The notes below the pieces were generated by a model. The model was not told the origin of the DNA, did no database searches, and saw only the letters and a list, made by a program, of their open reading frames with translations. Shown in pieces: positions 1 through 26,633 of a stretch of DNA of 64,000 bases (the first letter of the stretch is position 1; every line of letters starts with the position of its first letter). A program made the translations under genes and the position numbers. Origin of the DNA: Escherichia coli (lineage in GTDB: Bacteria > Pseudomonadota > Gammaproteobacteria > Enterobacterales > Enterobacteriaceae); NCBI RefSeq assembly GCF_051903065.1, contig NZ_CP178438.1; one strand, written 5' to 3'.

Positions 1-1350
1 GTGCAGATCTCCCGGCAGACGAGCATCACGAATGGCACGGATCAGATTGTGCTCCAGCACATAGTTATCCATGGTTGCCAACTGCACTACCTGCTGGCGG
101 ATGCGGCAGCGATAGGCCCAGATAAAGCACTTCTCGATGGCCAGTGACAGCCCTTGGCTGCCGAACTTGTCGATATAGAAGATCAGGGCGCAGTCGAACA
201 TGGCCCGCACATAACGATCCCCGGTGCGGTGGCGACGCTCGTAGCTGCCCAGGGTCGATAGCACCTTGCTGGCCATCGGTGTCAGCGTTTCGCCGAGCAG
301 GGTGGCAGATTGCGCCTTGCCGGAATCAGACTCCTCGGCCACGATGGCGGCCACCCGCGTCTGGTAGTACTCGGCCATCTCGAAAAAGCGCCGACCATTG
401 ATGATCATCTGGTCGAGATGAAAGGGAAACGTCATGTACTGGCCGTCAATCTTGCGCTGGTACTGGCGGTTGTACTCATCGACAAAGTGGTGGGCGATGC
501 GCAGCGACTCCACGTAAGGATAATGCCCTACCCGATCTAGGTTGACCCCCTTGAAGAGATCCACCTCCCCCTTGCCAAAGTAGCGGGCCGACTTGCCCTC
601 GGCCCACTGGCGTACCCGATAGAGATAGAGGGCGAACAGATTGGCCAGCTCGTCGCTTGGCAGGCGCTCCCAATGGGCGACCGCCTCGGCCTTGAGATTG
701 GCCTCATGACCGGCAAACTCGCGCAGGTGAAATGCCTTGAGCAGATCGTGAGGAGCCAGATCGCGCCCCCGGGCATTTTGCGAATCGAAGAACTGGAACG
801 CCTCCGAGATATCCTGCAGTACAAAGCAGACCACCTGACAGCGGTTGAGCAGAAAGTCAATTTGCTGCTCGTCAAACTCAGGGCGGGCCACCAGCCGACG
901 CAACTCCAGATAGTTGCGTCTGAGGTTGAACTCCGAATCCCGGCTGGGGAAGCGCTGGCGCTGCATAAACGCATCGATAGGTCCACGCAAGACCTGCAAT
1001 TGCTCACGCAGATCCTGACGTTGAAACCGGATACTCTTCTCTTTGCCACTGCGATTTTCGTTATCCAGCACCTCGATCAGCGCCTTGACGGTCAACATCA
1101 GGGTCAGGGTGCGTTGCTGACCATCGACGATATCAAGCATCTCGCCCTGCTCACTATCGGTGTGCTGATGAAACACCACCGAGCCCAGCCGGTAGGCGCT
1201 CTTGTCCTGATGGGTTGCCAAATCGGTAAAGAGATCCGAGATATTCTTGGAGCCCCAGCGGTAAGGTCGCTGATAGCTTGGGATGGCCAGTTGGGGAATG
1301 GCCAGCAACTGGCGTACCGACTGCACTTGATTATTAATGCTCTCCATCAT
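1..1350 (-). CDS. DUF262 (ParB/Srx-like nuclease domain) protein, N-terminal ~450 aa; 3' end beyond window start
   Basis: Minus-strand frame open from the ATG pair at 1347-1350 to the window edge; translation MMESINNQVQS...IVDGQQRTLTL carries the DGQQR motif; not in ORF track because no stop in window. Confidence 0.6.
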   Translation of the reverse strand, partial: MMESINNQVQSVRQLLAIPQLAIPSYQRPYRWGSKNISDLFTDLATHQDKSAYRLGSVVFHQHTDSEQGEMLDIVDGQQRTLTLMLTVKALIEVLDNENRSGKEKSIRFQRQDLREQLQVLRGPIDAFMQRQRFPSRDSEFNLRRNYLELRRLVARPEFDEQQIDFLLNRCQVVCFVLQDISEAFQFFDSQNARGRDLAPHDLLKAFHLREFAGHEANLKAEAVAHWERLPSDELANLFALYLYRVRQWAEGKSARYFGKGEVDLFKGVNLDRVGHYPYVESLRIAHHFVDEYNRQYQRKIDGQYMTFPFHLDQMIINGRRFFEMAEYYQTRVAAIVAEESDSGKAQSATLLGETLTPMASKVLSTLGSYERRHRTGDRYVRAMFDCALIFYIDKFGSQGLSLAIEKCFIWAYRCRIRQQVVQLATMDNYVLEHNLIRAIRDARLPGDLH

Positions 1351-1371
1351 GCCTCCTGCGGTATGAAGTGG

Positions 1372-1595
1372 TCAACAAAAACTGGCCACCGCGTTAGAGT
1401 TTTTCCAGTATCGGTTTTCTAATTCGTTTGGCGGTAACCCACCATTATATTCGTGCGGTCTTAGTGCGCTGTAATATCCAACGATATAGTCCGTTATTGC
1501 GTGAGCTGCATCGCTGAAGCTTACATAGCCCGTCGCCGGCACCCATTCGTTCTTCAGACTCCTGAAGAAGCGCTCCATTGGGCTGTTATCCCAGC
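1372..1595 (-). mobile_element. IS3-family transposase OrfB 3' fragment (IS2-like), truncated by the adjacent IS1 remnant
   Basis: ORF 1372..1578 translation [13 protein letters not shown]...[13 protein letters not shown] is a typical IS3-family OrfB C-terminus; no upstream part. Confidence 0.5.
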
Positions 1596-1973
1596 AGTTT
1601 CCGCGCAGACGATGACGTCACTGCCCGGCTGTATGCGCGAGGTTACCGACTGCGGCCTGAGTTTTTTAAGTGACGTAAAATCGTGTTGAGGCCAACGCCC
1701 ATAATGCGGGCTGTTGCCCGGCATCCAACGCCATTCATGGCCATATCAATGATTTTCTGGTGCGTACCGGGTTGAGAAGCGGTGTAAGTGAACTGCAGTT
1801 GCCATGTTTTACGGCAGTGAGAGCAGAGATAGCGCTGATGTCCGGCAGTGCTTTTGCCGTTACGCACCACCCCGTCAGTAGCTGAACGGGAGGGACAGCT
1901 GATAGAAACAGAAGCCACTGGAGCACCTCAAAAACACCATCATACACTAAATCAGTAAGTTGGCAGCATCACC
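1596..1973 (-). mobile_element. Truncated IS1 copy (terminal IR, insA, start of insB)
   Basis: Near-identical to the complete IS1 at 21318..22085 in opposite orientation; IS1 end ggtgatgctgccaac (reverse complement) at 1973; homology stops near 1596. Confidence 0.75.
1643..1918 (-). CDS. insA: IS1 InsA
   Basis: 91-aa [13 protein letters not shown]...CSHCRKTWQ zinc-finger InsA. Confidence 0.8.
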
Positions 1974-2004
1974 GACAAATGAGCCCATTGGAATAAGTTA
2001 GAAA

Positions 2005-24406: not shown

Positions 24407-24436
24407 TCTCCATATTTATAGTTTGCTAAAAAGTAG

Positions 24437-25636
24437 TCACATCTGCTTCGTAGCCGCAGTATTCAGAAGCAGGTCAGTCACTCCCTGCCCTGTCTGACGC
24501 ATACGTTCCGGTGTTAATTTCGCGTAACGTTCTGTACTCTGAATACTGGCATGCGCCAGTTGGGCTTTAACGTCATACAGGCTGAATTGACCACTCGAAA
24601 CCAGTAAAGAGGCAACAGAATGACGTGTGGTGTGAAAACAGACTTCATTCTTGTCTATACCGCACTGTGCCAGTATTTTTTCATATGCCCATCGGGGTTC
24701 CGATATCGGTTTTCCATTATCCTTAATGGCGAACAGATACGGATTACTGCCAACTCGTGGGATAGCATCAATAATCGATAATGCGGCATCGCTTAGATAT
24801 ACCGTCCGACTGCGACCATTTTTTGTATAAGGAATGAACAGAGTACGATTGGCCCGGTCGATATGTTCATGCCTGACATTAAGCATTTCTGATTTGCGTG
24901 TACCGGTTAACAACAACATGGCTATCAATCCCCCGGCAGCTTTGTTGGGATATTGGGTAGCAGCGTCAAGAATGCGCCTGATCTCATCAGCATCAAAAAA
25001 GCGCGTCCGCTGATTATTCTCTTTCAGTAAAGGGATCTTATCGGCTTCATTCTTTTCCAGCACATCCTGTCGCAACGCATAACGCCCCATCGTTTTCAGA
25101 ATAGCAAGGGCTCTGTTACAGGTAGACGGCGCATATTGCTGCCCGTGAATACGCCCCTCCAGCATGTCAAACAGCACCTGTTGTATCTCTCTGGCCCTGA
25201 GATCGCAGTAACGTATCTTTCCCAGACGAGGTTCAATGTATTGCGTGAAACGCTGAACATCCTTATCCCAGGACTTTTTATGGCGCTTGATGAACGGAAC
25301 ATAGGTCTGGTGAAAAAACTCACTAAGCGTTGGCATCGCACGATAATTATCGCGCTCTGCCTTGGGGTCATTTCCAAGTGCAATCGCCTCCTTATGACGG
25401 CGAGCTATCTGGCGAGCTGTCCCCACATCAATTTCAGGGAATCTGCCAATACTGATACTTTTTTTGGTACCGTGGAATGTGTAGCGCAGGAGGAAACGTT
25501 TGTTACCCGTTCGACCTGAGAGACATTTGAGGCCAATAACTTCGGTATCAGATACCTCAAGCTCTGTAGATCGGGTATCTGTGTTTGCCGGAAGGGCTTT
25601 GATGGATGAATTGGTGAATCGGAAGGATTTTTGCAT
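24437..25636 (-). CDS. P4-type tyrosine integrase with N-terminal arm-binding domain
   Basis: R...HxxR...Y catalytic residues (HTTRHSVAS, TERYAKL); start at MQKSF after GAGGA. Confidence 0.85.
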   Translation of the reverse strand: MQKSFRFTNSSIKALPANTDTRSTELEVSDTEVIGLKCLSGRTGNKRFLLRYTFHGTKKSISIGRFPEIDVGTARQIARRHKEAIALGNDPKAERDNYRAMPTLSEFFHQTYVPFIKRHKKSWDKDVQRFTQYIEPRLGKIRYCDLRAREIQQVLFDMLEGRIHGQQYAPSTCNRALAILKTMGRYALRQDVLEKNEADKIPLLKENNQRTRFFDADEIRRILDAATQYPNKAAGGLIAMLLLTGTRKSEMLNVRHEHIDRANRTLFIPYTKNGRSRTVYLSDAALSIIDAIPRVGSNPYLFAIKDNGKPISEPRWAYEKILAQCGIDKNEVCFHTTRHSVASLLVSSGQFSLYDVKAQLAHASIQSTERYAKLTPERMRQTGQGVTDLLLNTAATKQM

Positions 25637-25716
25637 ATTTATCCTCATGTATCTGATTGATATCATGAAAATAATATATATCTGAAGGTGTTTTTATTAC
25701 GGGGCAGGATTGAAGA

Positions 25717-26457
25717 ATGGAAAAGCTATTAGACGCGTACAAACGGATATTGCAGGAAGTTAACGCCCAGTCATTTAACCTGAATGAGGATAAATACTCA
25801 GGCGTATTTTTACCCGTACCCTTTGAAGAATACTGGCATTCACCGGTAAAAATCATGCTGGTTGGACGTGAAACCGCAGGCTGGAATACGCTGAATGGTA
25901 AGAATACGATATCACGGGTGTTGGGACTTATACCTGACGTTACCATCGGGCAAGTGGTTGAAGAAGCTGTAGATCGTTACAGGAAACATCTTCCGGTACA
26001 AAATTATGGCACCGCCAACCTCAAATCACGTAGCCGCTTCACGCAATATCATTTCAGGCTGGCCCGGGAGCTTAATATCCCTCCTCAGGCTATCGTGTAT
26101 GCCAATCTACTGGCGTGGGATTACGACGGACTGACCCCTCTCAATCGCCCTCAAAATGAAGTGCAGGAAGTTATATTAGCCTCGCTGAAGCTGCTGGCGG
26201 TACAAATTAAACACCTTGAGCCTGATTTCATGATCTTTGCATCCGGAGCCCGGAGAACAGACTACATCATTAAACAGGTGCTTACTGAGCTGGGCGGTTA
26301 TGAGACTTCTTCAGTCATTCCGGGGAAGCTGTGGGAGTTCAAAACAGGTAATACAATCTGTTTCAGAATTGCCCATCCAAGGGCTATGCGCGGACACCAG
26401 AAGTACAGAGATGAGGTGATTGCACGAATTAAGCAACTTTGTACTAAGGGCGGCTAG
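25717..26457 (+). CDS. Hypothetical protein; weak resemblance to uracil-DNA glycosylase superfamily motifs
   Basis: 246-aa ORF; VGRETAGW and AHPRAM segments loosely resemble UDG motifs A/B. Confidence 0.4.
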   Translation: MEKLLDAYKRILQEVNAQSFNLNEDKYSGVFLPVPFEEYWHSPVKIMLVGRETAGWNTLNGKNTISRVLGLIPDVTIGQVVEEAVDRYRKHLPVQNYGTANLKSRSRFTQYHFRLARELNIPPQAIVYANLLAWDYDGLTPLNRPQNEVQEVILASLKLLAVQIKHLEPDFMIFASGARRTDYIIKQVLTELGGYETSSVIPGKLWEFKTGNTICFRIAHPRAMRGHQKYRDEVIARIKQLCTKGG

Positions 26458-26633
26458 AGCATTACAACTTGCTCAGCAGGCCCCCCTTCCCGGAAGAGTA
26501 CCGGAAAACAGGCAAAGCGGCCTGGTTCTCTATGCTGGAGGCGACACGTTCAATTCGGCATTGCCAGGCTGTAGATTGCAGCTCATTGCACCCCGTGCGC
26601 ACAGGATATGCACAGGGCGTGAATTGCATGCAC

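What the first reader, a model, noticed from the sequence alone, without database searches (positions are those of the whole stretch)
1..26633. 26-kb accessory island at the leuZ tRNA locus with pipolin hallmarks
In the K-12 reference order that I recall, yecA lies directly beside leuZ; here about 26 kb of accessory DNA sits there instead. It encodes a family-B polymerase with KTRG replacing the KxY motif, two tyrosine recombinases, an Xis/AlpA-like gene and a Type I R-M operon, the combination reported for pipolins. The class is described, but this copy is IS-ridden and carries unannotatable cargo.
Basis: partly seen in the sequence, partly recalled or inferred. Interest (0 to 1): 0.6.

Follow-up and report, generated by a model that had tools for sequence, protein, structure and literature searches.

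The report
Known E. coli pipolin at leuZ
The first 26.6 kb of the window is the right-hand part of a pipolin, a well-described mobile defence island with its own primer-independent DNA polymerase, inserted at the usual E. coli tRNA-Leu site, so it is real but ordinary.

Summary
In K-12, yecA lies next to leuZ. Here accessory DNA fills window 1-26623 and ends in a 131-bp att repeat (26624-26754) that overlaps the 3' 56 nt of tRNA-Leu(UAA).

ORF 16105-18705 is a piPolB:
- It carries every residue mutated in the characterised E. coli enzyme at the same numbers (D59/E61, D368, K613-H614, K623-T-R-G, SVTTDG).
- Its AlphaFold model matches phi29 DNA polymerase best.
- Its own Pfam hit is only marginal (E=0.014).

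The published Gammaproteobacteria backbone is present: an Arm-type integrase beside the tRNA, a second recombinase with an excisionase, WYL and DUF2787 genes, and orphans. The cargo is a Type I R-M operon with an embedded PDC-S12 gene and a DUF262/HEC-06-like gene.

Corrections:
- The window cuts the island. In two 99.99%-identical genomes it spans about 37.5 kb.
- Those genomes have three att copies, a further Hhe/DUF262 cargo segment, and a 2.1-kb remnant of a second element.
- IS903B and IS1 are simple insertions with 9-bp target duplications.
- The two "unannotatable" low-GC genes are conserved backbone rather than cargo.

The polymerase gene is in 295 of 5426 complete E. coli genomes, and the site and cargo types are published. 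Verdict: already known, low interest.

The parts
1..1347 (-). N-terminal 449 codons of a DUF262 (HEC-06/Orf5-like) defence-candidate gene. The gene runs off the left edge of the window.
   Evidence: Open frame with no stops. The full-length 483-aa protein in L001 hits PADLOC HEC-06 at 4.7e-30. RefSeq annotation: DUF262 domain-containing protein.
1372..1975 (.). IS scar: an IS3-family integrase-core fragment abutting a 378-bp IS1 fragment.
   Evidence: RefSeq pseudogene annotations. BLAST of 1598-1975 to the IS1 copies. The scar is also present in IS-poor relatives L003 and L009.
2005..2760 (-). M48/YgjP-like metallopeptidase gene at the 3' end of the Type I R-M operon.
   Evidence: RefSeq annotation. 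The Edwardsiella orthologue carries Pfam YgjP-like. No PADLOC or NCBIfam hit.
2757..6044 (-). hsdR, Type I restriction subunit R.
   Evidence: PADLOC REase_I, 1373.6 bits, full length.
6094..6777 (-). PDC-S12 / YecA-family SEC-C-motif protein embedded between hsdS and hsdR.
   Evidence: PADLOC PDC-S12 1.9e-99. NCBIfam PRK10396, 359 bits. 57% identical to the chromosomal YecA that flanks the island.
6774..8012 (-). hsdS specificity subunit. Its target-recognition regions differ from those of the closest IS-free relative.
   Evidence: PADLOC Specificity_I 3.7e-147. Window 6940-8046 does not align to L003 except for 182 bp.
8009..9565 (-). hsdM methyltransferase subunit.
   Evidence: PADLOC MTase_I 5.5e-133.
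9869..11104 (+). Low-GC orphan gene 1 (about 410 aa), the first gene of the conserved backbone.
   Evidence: No Pfam, PADLOC, PHROG or NCBIfam family. Homologues occur only in Enterobacterales. A 57%-identical orthologue sits in the same position in an Edwardsiella pipolin.
11611..12741 (+). Low-GC orphan gene 2 (376 aa), all-helical, conserved backbone.
12885..14021 (+). Tyrosine recombinase in the position of the published 'IntP2' gene, followed by an excisionase.
   Evidence: NCBIfam XerC/XerD-like hits at 2e-16. The orthologue in L006 carries Pfam Phage_integrase. The arrangement is described in PMC11551731.
14164..14364 (+). Excisionase-family helix-turn-helix gene (Xis).
   Evidence: NCBIfam TIGR01764 'excise' 3.5e-05, below the curated cutoff. 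The Edwardsiella orthologue carries Pfam HTH_17.
14420..15476 (+). IS903B (1057 bp) with the 9-bp target duplication GCAGCAAAC (14411-14419 and 15477-15485). It is inserted in about codon 20 of the orphan gene that follows xis.
   Evidence: Boundaries read from the sequence. The IS is absent from L003, where the 212-aa gene is intact at 26343-26981.
15546..16058 (+). 3' remainder of the 212-aa backbone orphan gene interrupted by IS903B.
   Evidence: Comparison with L003 and L006. No family hit.
16065..16088 (+). GC-rich hairpin followed by a T-run, immediately upstream of the piPolB start codon.
   Evidence: Terminator scan. The same structure, with a different sequence, is found in L003 and in Edwardsiella L006.
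16105..18705 (+). piPolB, a primer-independent family-B DNA polymerase (866 aa), apparently intact.
   Evidence: Signature residues at the published positions. Family conservation. Family-level Pfam DNA_pol_B_2. Fold match to phi29 DNA polymerase, E 2e-15. 99-100% identical copies in 277 genomes.
18754..19080 (-). 108-aa backbone orphan gene.
   Evidence: No family hit. A same-sized gene sits in the same position in Edwardsiella.
19460..20362 (+). HTH-WYL regulator or sensor gene.
   Evidence: PADLOC WYL 7.5e-22. The orthologue carries Pfam WYL+WCX. It is listed as a pipolin core marker in PMC11551731.
20424..21242 (+). DUF726 protein gene.
   Evidence: RefSeq annotation. PHROG 35015, unknown function. 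A GTPase gene takes its place in Edwardsiella.
21318..22085 (+). IS1 (768 bp) with the 9-bp target duplication TTGATATGG (21309-21317 and 22086-22094), in an intergenic position.
   Evidence: Boundaries read from the sequence. The IS is absent from L003.
22630..23064 (-). DUF2787 protein gene, a pipolin core marker.
   Evidence: RefSeq annotation. The orthologue carries Pfam PF10980. PMC11551731.
23137..24067 (-). Two backbone orphan genes (177 aa and 123 aa).
   Evidence: Only PHROGs of unknown function. No PADLOC, NCBIfam or PDB match.
24437..25666 (-). att-proximal tyrosine integrase in the position of the published 'IntSXT' gene.
   Evidence: Pfam Arm-DNA-bind_3 7e-14 and Phage_integrase 1.4e-23. 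Its position next to the tRNA matches PMC11551731.
25717..26457 (+). 246-aa right-end orphan gene. A truncated second copy lies in the remnant element outside the window.
   Evidence: PHROG 29550, unknown function. No Pfam or PDB hit. The duplicate is at L001 2941-3365.
26624..26754 (.). attR, a 131-bp repeat made up of the terminator, the 3'ETS-leuZ and the 3' 56 nt of leuZ. Its identity ends at the anticodon loop.
   Evidence: Alignments with att1, att2 and K-12.
26699..26785 (-). leuZ, tRNA-Leu(UAA), the integration target. The gene is kept whole by the element-borne 3' half.
   Evidence: ARAGORN, Rfam tRNA and the K-12 annotation.

Best explanation
Window 1-26754 is the leuZ-proximal three quarters of an integrated E. 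coli pipolin, a mobile element defined by its piPolB gene, with the published two-module layout.

Layout:
- Backbone, about 9869-26623: two orphan genes, a recombinase with an excisionase, an orphan, piPolB, an orphan, WYL, DUF726, DUF2787, two orphans, the att-proximal Arm-type integrase, and a final orphan.
- Defence cargo, 1-9565 and continuing outside the window: a Type I R-M operon with an embedded PDC-S12 gene and an M48 peptidase gene, DUF262/HEC-06-like genes, and Hhe.

Shown here:
- The element sits between direct repeats of a 133-bp segment comprising the leuZ 3' half, the 3'ETS and the terminator.
- The repeat beside the complete tRNA carries the element's own sequence variant. The K-12-type copy is left at the yecA end.
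- The crossover therefore lay on the tRNA side of the variant positions, at or near the anticodon loop where the identity ends.

Inferred from the pipolin literature:
- The att-proximal integrase catalyses integration and excision at this site, helped by the excisionase.
- After excision, piPolB could start and carry out replication of the circular form without a separate primase.
- The cargo protects the host against phages.

Two recent simple IS insertions have occurred. IS903B cuts the small orphan gene between xis and piPolB. IS1 is intergenic. The polymerase, both recombinases, the excisionase and the att sites remain intact.
For: - Empty-site comparison with K-12.
- Three att copies in the near-identical genomes.
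- piPolB residues D59, E61, D368, K613, H614, K623 and R625, and SVTTDG at 571-576, fall at the numbers published for the biochemically characterised enzyme.
- Across 41 family members at 30-48% identity, D368, T574-D575-G576 and K613 are invariant. D59, E61 and R625 are at least 90% conserved.
- 34 of 41 members hit Pfam DNA_pol_B_2.
- The AF2 model (pLDDT 86.6) matches phi29 DNA polymerase best, E 2e-15, target TM 0.63.
- The att-proximal integrase has Arm-DNA-bind_3 and Phage_integrase domains. The second recombinase and the excisionase are confirmed. WYL, Type I R-M and PDC-S12 are confirmed. Hhe and the HEC-06-like genes are confirmed.
- Gene order is conserved in an Edwardsiella pipolin at 57-69% protein identity for the two orphans.
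- The literature names the same site, 'tRNA-Leu between pgsA and yecA', the same core genes, and Type 1 RM, PDC-S12, hhe and HEC-06 as E. coli pipolin cargo.
- The piPolB gene is in 295 of 5426 complete genomes, always chromosomal. At least 80% of window 1-25000 is found in 99 genomes.
Against: - The window's own polymerase scores below threshold against Pfam DNA_pol_B_2 (E=0.014). It has no sequence-level PDB match, even with a family profile.
- attL lies outside the window, so the boundary rests on genomes that differ from the window by 2-3 single-base indels.
- The literature read here reports no detected excision or episomal form of E. coli pipolins under standard growth (PMC7385651). Mobility and self-replication of this copy are therefore inferred.
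- The IS903B insertion may have uncoupled piPolB from upstream transcription. A terminator-like hairpin sits directly before the gene.
- The 'IntSXT' and 'IntP2' labels were assigned by domain content and position, not by phylogeny.
Confidence: 0.93

Rival explanations
1. The element is a fixed, decaying relic rather than an active mobile element. It still serves as a defence island, but IS insertions and the loss of co-transcription have made excision or self-replication non-functional.
For: - IS903B interrupts the orphan gene between xis and piPolB. An IS1 and an IS scar lie inside the element.
- No excision or episome was detected in surveyed strains (PMC7385651).
- Piecemeal decay at this site is documented in relatives. 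L005 is an 8.9-kb version without piPolB, and remnants occur in L001 and L009.
Against: - piPolB, both recombinases, the excisionase and all att copies are full length. The catalytic residues of piPolB are conserved.
- Both IS copies have perfect 9-bp target duplications and are absent from close relatives, so they are recent and have caused no deletion.
- Cargo and hsdS differ among otherwise 97-99% identical elements, which argues for ongoing exchange.
Confidence: 0.3
2. The region is a generic tRNA-integrated defence island or phage satellite, and the PolB gene is just another cargo gene. On this reading 'pipolin' is a label of convenience rather than a mechanistic class.
For: - Most of the DNA is defence cargo or orphan genes.
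- A related backbone (orphan 1 homologue at 45% identity, recombinase, DUF2787, Arm-type integrase) carries a DUF927 protein where piPolB would be (L007).
- A piPolB-less version occupies the same site in L005.
Against: - piPolB keeps its position among the same neighbours from E. coli to Edwardsiella.
- PMC11551731 reports that complete pipolins are significantly over-represented relative to control gene sets, and that versions lacking only piPolB are under-represented.
- No phage structural genes or satellite hallmark genes were found. The PHROG hits are to the polymerase or to families of unknown function.
Confidence: 0.07

Closest known systems
E. coli 3-373-03_S1_C2 pipolin and its piPolB (Redrejo-Rodriguez et al. 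2017, PMC5695915)
   Same: The polymerase has the same architecture. All experimentally mutated residues fall at identical numbers, with the KH-X8-KTRG and SxTTDG motifs. It integrates in a tRNA gene and is flanked by att direct repeats.
   Different: This copy carries IS903B and IS1 insertions and its own cargo set.
Enterobacterales pipolins as bimodular defence islands (Mateo-Caceres and Redrejo-Rodriguez 2024, PMC11551731; Flament-Simon et al. 2020, PMC7385651)
   Same: The integration site is the same, tRNA-Leu between pgsA and yecA. The core is the same: piPolB, an att-proximal integrase, a second recombinase with an excisionase, DUF2787, WYL and orphans. The named cargo types are the same: Type 1 RM, PDC-S12, hhe and HEC-06.
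   Different: In the nearest genomes a 2.1-kb remnant of a second leuZ element lies in tandem with the pipolin. The 2024 paper states that no pipolin 'reinfection' was detected in Enterobacterales. The 2020 paper attributes third att copies to co-integrated prophages.
Protein-primed family-B polymerases (phi29, Bam35) and Pfam DNA_pol_B_2
   Same: The fold is the same, with phi29 DNA polymerase the best structural match. The exonuclease and polymerase catalytic residues are conserved. Most family members hit DNA_pol_B_2.
   Different: KxY is replaced by KTRG, and the first Asp of YxDTDS by Thr. No terminal-protein gene was noted. About 12% sequence identity to phi29 DNA polymerase in the structural alignment.
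Tandem pipolins in Vibrio (PMC11551731, Figure 3B, pipolin 7)
   Same: Two elements lie head to tail in one tRNA gene and share att repeats (compared).
   Different: In E. coli the yecA-proximal unit is reduced by IS-associated deletion to its two ends, and its right end is 97.4% identical to its neighbour's. In Vibrio the polymerases and integrases of the two elements are only 30-35% identical.

Membership tests
Pipolin (piPolB-encoding mobile element) | Encodes a piPolB: a family-B polymerase with KH-X8-KTRG in place of KxY, SxTTDG in place of YxDTDS, and an intact exonuclease motif. | tested here: met
   K613-H614, then 8 residues, then K623-T-R-G. SVTTDG lies at 571-576 and D59-x-E61 is present, matching PMC5695915. 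K613, T574, D575, G576 and D368 are invariant in 41 homologues.
Pipolin (piPolB-encoding mobile element) | The polymerase belongs to the phi29-like (TPR1/TPR2-bearing) branch of PolB. | tested here: met
   AF2 model pLDDT 86.6. The top eight PDB matches are all phi29 DNA polymerase entries, E 2e-15 to 3e-12. 34 of 41 homologues hit Pfam DNA_pol_B_2. The protein's own Pfam hit is marginal (E=0.014). The TPR1 and TPR2 subdomains were not mapped individually.
Pipolin (piPolB-encoding mobile element) | Flanked by att-like direct repeats, one of which overlaps the 3' end of a tRNA gene. | tested here: met
   attR lies at window 26624-26754 and overlaps leuZ. attL and a middle att lie at L001 1219-1351 and 3532-3662 in 99.99%-identical genomes. 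attL itself is outside the window.
Pipolin (piPolB-encoding mobile element) | E. coli pipolins occupy the tRNA-Leu site between pgsA and yecA. | tested here: met
   with the site stated in PMC7385651 and PMC11551731.
Pipolin (piPolB-encoding mobile element) | Gammaproteobacterial core: an att-proximal IntSXT-family integrase, an IntP2-family recombinase with an excisionase near piPolB, DUF2787, WYL, and orphans. | tested here: met
   All these genes are present in the described positions. The IntSXT and IntP2 subfamily labels rest on domain content and synteny. No integrase phylogeny was made.
Pipolin (piPolB-encoding mobile element) | De novo (primer-independent) DNA synthesis by the polymerase. 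| not testable with these tools
   This is a biochemical property, shown for the 3-373-03_S1_C2 enzyme. Here only the residues implicated in it are shown to be present.
Pipolin (piPolB-encoding mobile element) | Excision, circularisation and self-replication. | not testable with these tools
   The literature read here reports none detected in E. coli under standard growth.
Type I restriction-modification system | HsdM, HsdS and HsdR are encoded together and are full length. | tested here: met
   PADLOC MTase_I 5.5e-133, Specificity_I 3.7e-147 and REase_I 1373.6 bits. The ORFs are 518, 412 and 1095 aa. Restriction activity and target sequence were not tested.

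The most novel reading that the evidence does not exclude
The arrangement just outside the window records one pipolin integrating next to another in E. coli.

- In the two nearest genomes the order is att, truncated Mrr-like nuclease gene, IS1, truncated right-end orphan gene, att, then the full pipolin.
- The remnant's right end is a distinct allele. It has 19 differences in 722 bp from the resident pipolin, 13 of which are shared with another strain's element.
- Strain 2EC1 carries an independent remnant of the same kind (mzaE, IS, integrase fragment, orphan, att).

This would be pipolin 'reinfection' followed by IS-associated decay in Enterobacterales, where the 2024 survey reported none. 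It would imply recent site-specific integration activity of these elements in E. coli.

A second, weaker reading: every integration swaps the host's 3'ETS-leuZ sRNA sponge for a variant allele carried by the element.
Probability: 0.55. Interest if true: 0.3.

Novelty: already known. Interest (0 to 1): 0.15.

Why it matters
For the scan, this region can be filed as a correctly recognised, previously catalogued element. E. coli pipolins at leuZ, their core genes and these cargo types are covered by four papers, and the polymerase gene is in about 5% of complete E. coli genomes.

Its remaining value is as an example:
- A well-preserved copy with datable IS insertions.
- A set of backbone genes with no known function that are conserved across genera.
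- In sister genomes, a tandem remnant that bears on whether pipolins still integrate in E. coli.

Tried and rejected
- Direct Pfam assignment of the polymerase gave only E=0.014. Sequence searches of the PDB with the protein and with a 41-sequence profile found nothing relevant. Family-level Pfam, motif numbering and fold search were used instead.
- I looked for the 'type-4 UDG' that the 2020 paper reports near the right-end recombinase. The 246-aa and 177-aa genes there have no Pfam, NCBIfam or PDB match. No UDG could be confirmed in this copy.
- The two low-GC orphans were tested as hidden defence genes:
  - No PADLOC, PHROG, NCBIfam or Pfam family. The best was AbiJ_NTD4 at E=0.053, treated as noise.
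  - Homologues are confined to Enterobacterales and are unannotated.
  - Their function stays unknown. Their fixed position beside the recombinase in Edwardsiella argues against exchangeable cargo.
- Rfam found only the three tRNAs in 1-28000.
- The idea that the middle att and remnant are a recent internal duplication of the pipolin's own right end was rejected, because the two copies differ at 19 of 722 positions in a lineage-specific pattern.
- A prophage or satellite origin was rejected for lack of any structural or hallmark genes.

Full report
**Observation.** ARAGORN finds tRNA-Leu(taa) at 26699-26785, tRNA-Cys and tRNA-Gly, all on the minus strand. In K-12 MG1655, yecA ends 195 nt from leuZ, with only the 67-nt 3'ETS-leuZ sRNA annotated between them. 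In the window, K-12 sequence aligns only from 26624 rightwards. Everything to the left, down to position 1, is absent from K-12. The accessory-island observation is therefore real and does not depend on chance matches.

**Source and true extent.** Window 1-25000 is essentially identical to two complete chromosomes from Ecuadorian human isolates, 23CRST031 and 23CRST027. Over the first 28 kb they differ from the window by three and two single-base indels and no substitutions. In both genomes the island continues 10.8 kb beyond the window's left edge to yecA, giving about 37.5 kb in all. The extra DNA encodes a second DUF262 protein and the 1911-aa anti-phage protein Hhe. It also holds a short segment made of a truncated Mrr-like nuclease gene, an IS1, and a truncated copy of the right-end orphan gene. 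Position 1 of the finding is thus a window artefact, not a boundary.

**att sites.** The 133-bp K-12 segment comprising the leuZ terminator, the 3'ETS-leuZ and the 3' 56 nt of leuZ occurs three times as a direct repeat in these genomes:
- next to yecA (L001 1219-1351);
- 2.3 kb further in (3532-3662);
- overlapping the complete leuZ (38621-38751, which is window 26624-26754).

Identity ends in the anticodon loop. The yecA-side copy carries the K-12 allele of the 3'ETS. The copy joined to the complete tRNA carries a variant allele with two substitutions and a 2-nt deletion within the 3'ETS, plus one substitution beyond the terminator. The same is true in every pipolin-bearing locus examined. 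This is the expected outcome of site-specific recombination between an element-borne attP and the tRNA gene, with the crossover on the tRNA side of the variant positions.

**The polymerase.** ORF 16105-18705 gives an 866-aa protein. Its own Pfam hit to DNA_pol_B_2 is sub-threshold (E=0.014). PHROG DNA-polymerase families match at 5e-7. Sequence searches of the PDB find nothing. Four further results settle it.
1. Every residue mutated in the characterised E. coli piPolB (D59/E61, D368, K613, H614, K623, R625) is found at exactly that number. KH-X8-KTRG and SVTTDG are both present (against PMC5695915).
2. An exhaustive search finds 2080 clusters of homologues. In an alignment of 41 of them at 30-48% identity, D368, T574-D575-G576 and K613 are invariant, and D59, E61 and R625 are at least 90% conserved.
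3. 34 of those 41 hit DNA_pol_B_2 at E<=0.001, best 2.3e-13.
4. An AlphaFold model built on that alignment (pLDDT 86.6, pTM 0.85) matches phi29 DNA polymerase in its eight best PDB hits (E down to 2e-15, target TM 0.63). Archaeal and eukaryotic family-B enzymes follow.

The gene is a piPolB and appears intact.

**Backbone.** To the right of hsdM, all in window coordinates:
- two low-GC orphan genes (9869-11104, 11611-12741);
- a tyrosine recombinase (12885-14021);
- an excisionase-family HTH gene (14164-14364);
- a small orphan gene, then piPolB;
- a 108-aa orphan on the opposite strand;
- an HTH-WYL gene (19460-20362);
- a DUF726 gene and a DUF2787 gene (22630-23064);
- two more orphans;
- an integrase with Arm-DNA-bind_3 and Phage_integrase domains (24437-25666);
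- a 246-aa orphan next to attR.

**Cargo.** The left part of the window carries a complete Type I R-M operon: hsdM 8009-9565, hsdS 6774-8012 and hsdR 2757-6044. A PDC-S12/YecA-family SEC-C protein gene is embedded between hsdS and hsdR, and an M48/YgjP-like peptidase gene lies downstream. Next come an old IS1/IS3 scar (1372-1975) and a DUF262 gene with HEC-06/Orf5-like matches that runs off the window. The hsdS target-recognition regions are the one part of the operon that does not align with the closest IS-free relative, as expected for a system that changes specificity. PMC11551731 names Type 1 RM, PDC-S12, hhe and HEC-06 among the defence systems of E. coli pipolins, so the cargo is also as published.

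**IS elements.** IS903B (14420-15476, 1057 bp) and IS1 (21318-22085, 768 bp) each have perfect 9-bp target duplications. Both are missing from strain MEI4O1-23, which otherwise aligns at 97-99%. IS1 is intergenic. IS903B sits about 20 codons into the 212-aa orphan gene that overlaps the end of xis and precedes piPolB, so that gene has lost its start. Transcription from the recombinase-xis side may also no longer reach piPolB. 'IS-ridden' is fair, but no core gene with an assigned function is broken.

**Mechanism.**
- Shown: the structure of an integrated element with an attL/attR pair in a tRNA gene, with intact recombinases, excisionase and polymerase.
- Inferred from the family: the att-proximal integrase integrates and excises the element. 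The polymerase can prime and replicate the excised circle. The cargo defends the host.
- Caution: the literature read here reports that excision was negligible or undetectable in sequenced E. coli strains. A fixed-relic reading keeps appreciable weight. It differs only in whether this copy is still active, not in what it is.

**Comparison and novelty.** The piPolB gene is found at 95% identity or more in 295 of 5426 complete E. coli genomes, always on the chromosome. 99 genomes carry at least 80% of window 1-25000. The class, the site, the core and the cargo types are all described (PMC5695915, PMC7385651, PMC9710591, PMC11551731). I file this as already known.

**What lies slightly beyond the literature read here.** The 2.1-kb segment between the first two att copies has pipolin-type left and right ends. 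Its right end differs from the neighbouring pipolin's at 19 of 722 positions. At 13 of these it shares the allele of the decayed piPolB-less element of strain ECNB21-M121, and that element also shares the same nuclease-IS1 junction. The junction 'right end, att, left end' occurs in only 6 of 5426 genomes. One of them, 2EC1, has a different remnant (mzaE, ISEc52, integrase N-terminal fragment, orphan, att) ahead of an Hhe-type pipolin. This looks like tandem integration of one pipolin beside another, followed by IS-associated deletion. The 2024 survey states that no such reinfection was detected in Enterobacterales. The 2020 paper attributes third att copies to prophages. This is incremental, and it lies outside the window.

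**Verdict.** The element is an ordinary member of a catalogued family. Interest is low.

Noticed in passing
window 26634-26698 (minus strand); L001 1229-1295 and 3542-3606: The att repeat contains the whole 3'ETS-leuZ sRNA, a sponge for RyhB and RybB. In all five pipolin-bearing loci examined, the complete leuZ is followed by an element-borne variant (GGGAAACAUCAGAAUAAUCAAAGC against K-12 GGGAAAGAUAAGAAUAAAAUCAAAGC). The changes fall in the A-rich 5' part. The K-12 allele is left attached to a tRNA 3' half at the yecA end. The pipolin papers searched do not mention this.
   Followed up: partly
L001 3532-3662 (outside the window); hits H67-H77: The middle att copy carries a compensatory double change in the tRNA T-stem (GCGGG/CCCGC to GUGGG/CCCAC). 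In at least 11 other genomes, sequence 100% identical to the remnant's right end plus this att copy lies under the annotated tRNA-Leu. Some pipolins may therefore alter the sequence of the host tRNA-Leu(UAA).
   Followed up: partly
window 6094-6777 (minus strand) and L001 435-1100: The PDC-S12 gene embedded in the Type I R-M operon encodes a protein 57% identical over its full length to chromosomal YecA, the gene that flanks the integration site. This may be coincidence. No explanation was tested.
   Followed up: partly
window 16065-16088 (plus strand): A GC-rich hairpin followed by a T-run sits between the upstream orphan gene and the piPolB start codon. The same structure, with a different sequence, is found in another E. 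coli pipolin and in Edwardsiella. It may be a terminator or attenuator limiting polymerase expression.
   Followed up: partly
L001 1219-3712; L005 19868-28720; L009 about 15100-20700: Decay series at the leuZ site. One is a 2.1-kb two-ended remnant in tandem with the full pipolin. Another is an 8.9-kb element without piPolB that shares the same nuclease-IS1 junction. A third is an independent mzaE/integrase-fragment remnant in strain 2EC1.
   Followed up: partly
L007 1-16646 (Logan assembly ERR1891491): A pipolin-like backbone carries a 641-aa DUF927 protein where piPolB would be. The backbone comprises an orphan 1 homologue at 45% identity, a recombinase, DUF2787 and an Arm-type integrase. 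This suggests the replication module has been swapped.
   Followed up: no
window 6940-8046: The hsdS target-recognition regions are the only part of the R-M operon that fails to align with the closest IS-free relative, apart from 182 bp. This implies a different recognition sequence.
   Followed up: no
window about 45880-49300: A small variable islet lies between yedK and fliE. It holds an integrase fragment (49190-49297), a leucine-rich-repeat protein gene, a GNAT fragment and a DUF5503 pseudogene. The annotations are taken from the near-identical genome. The rest of window 27000-64000 is ordinary core genome: pgsA, uvrCY, sdiA, tcy, the fli operons and dgcQ.
   Followed up: no
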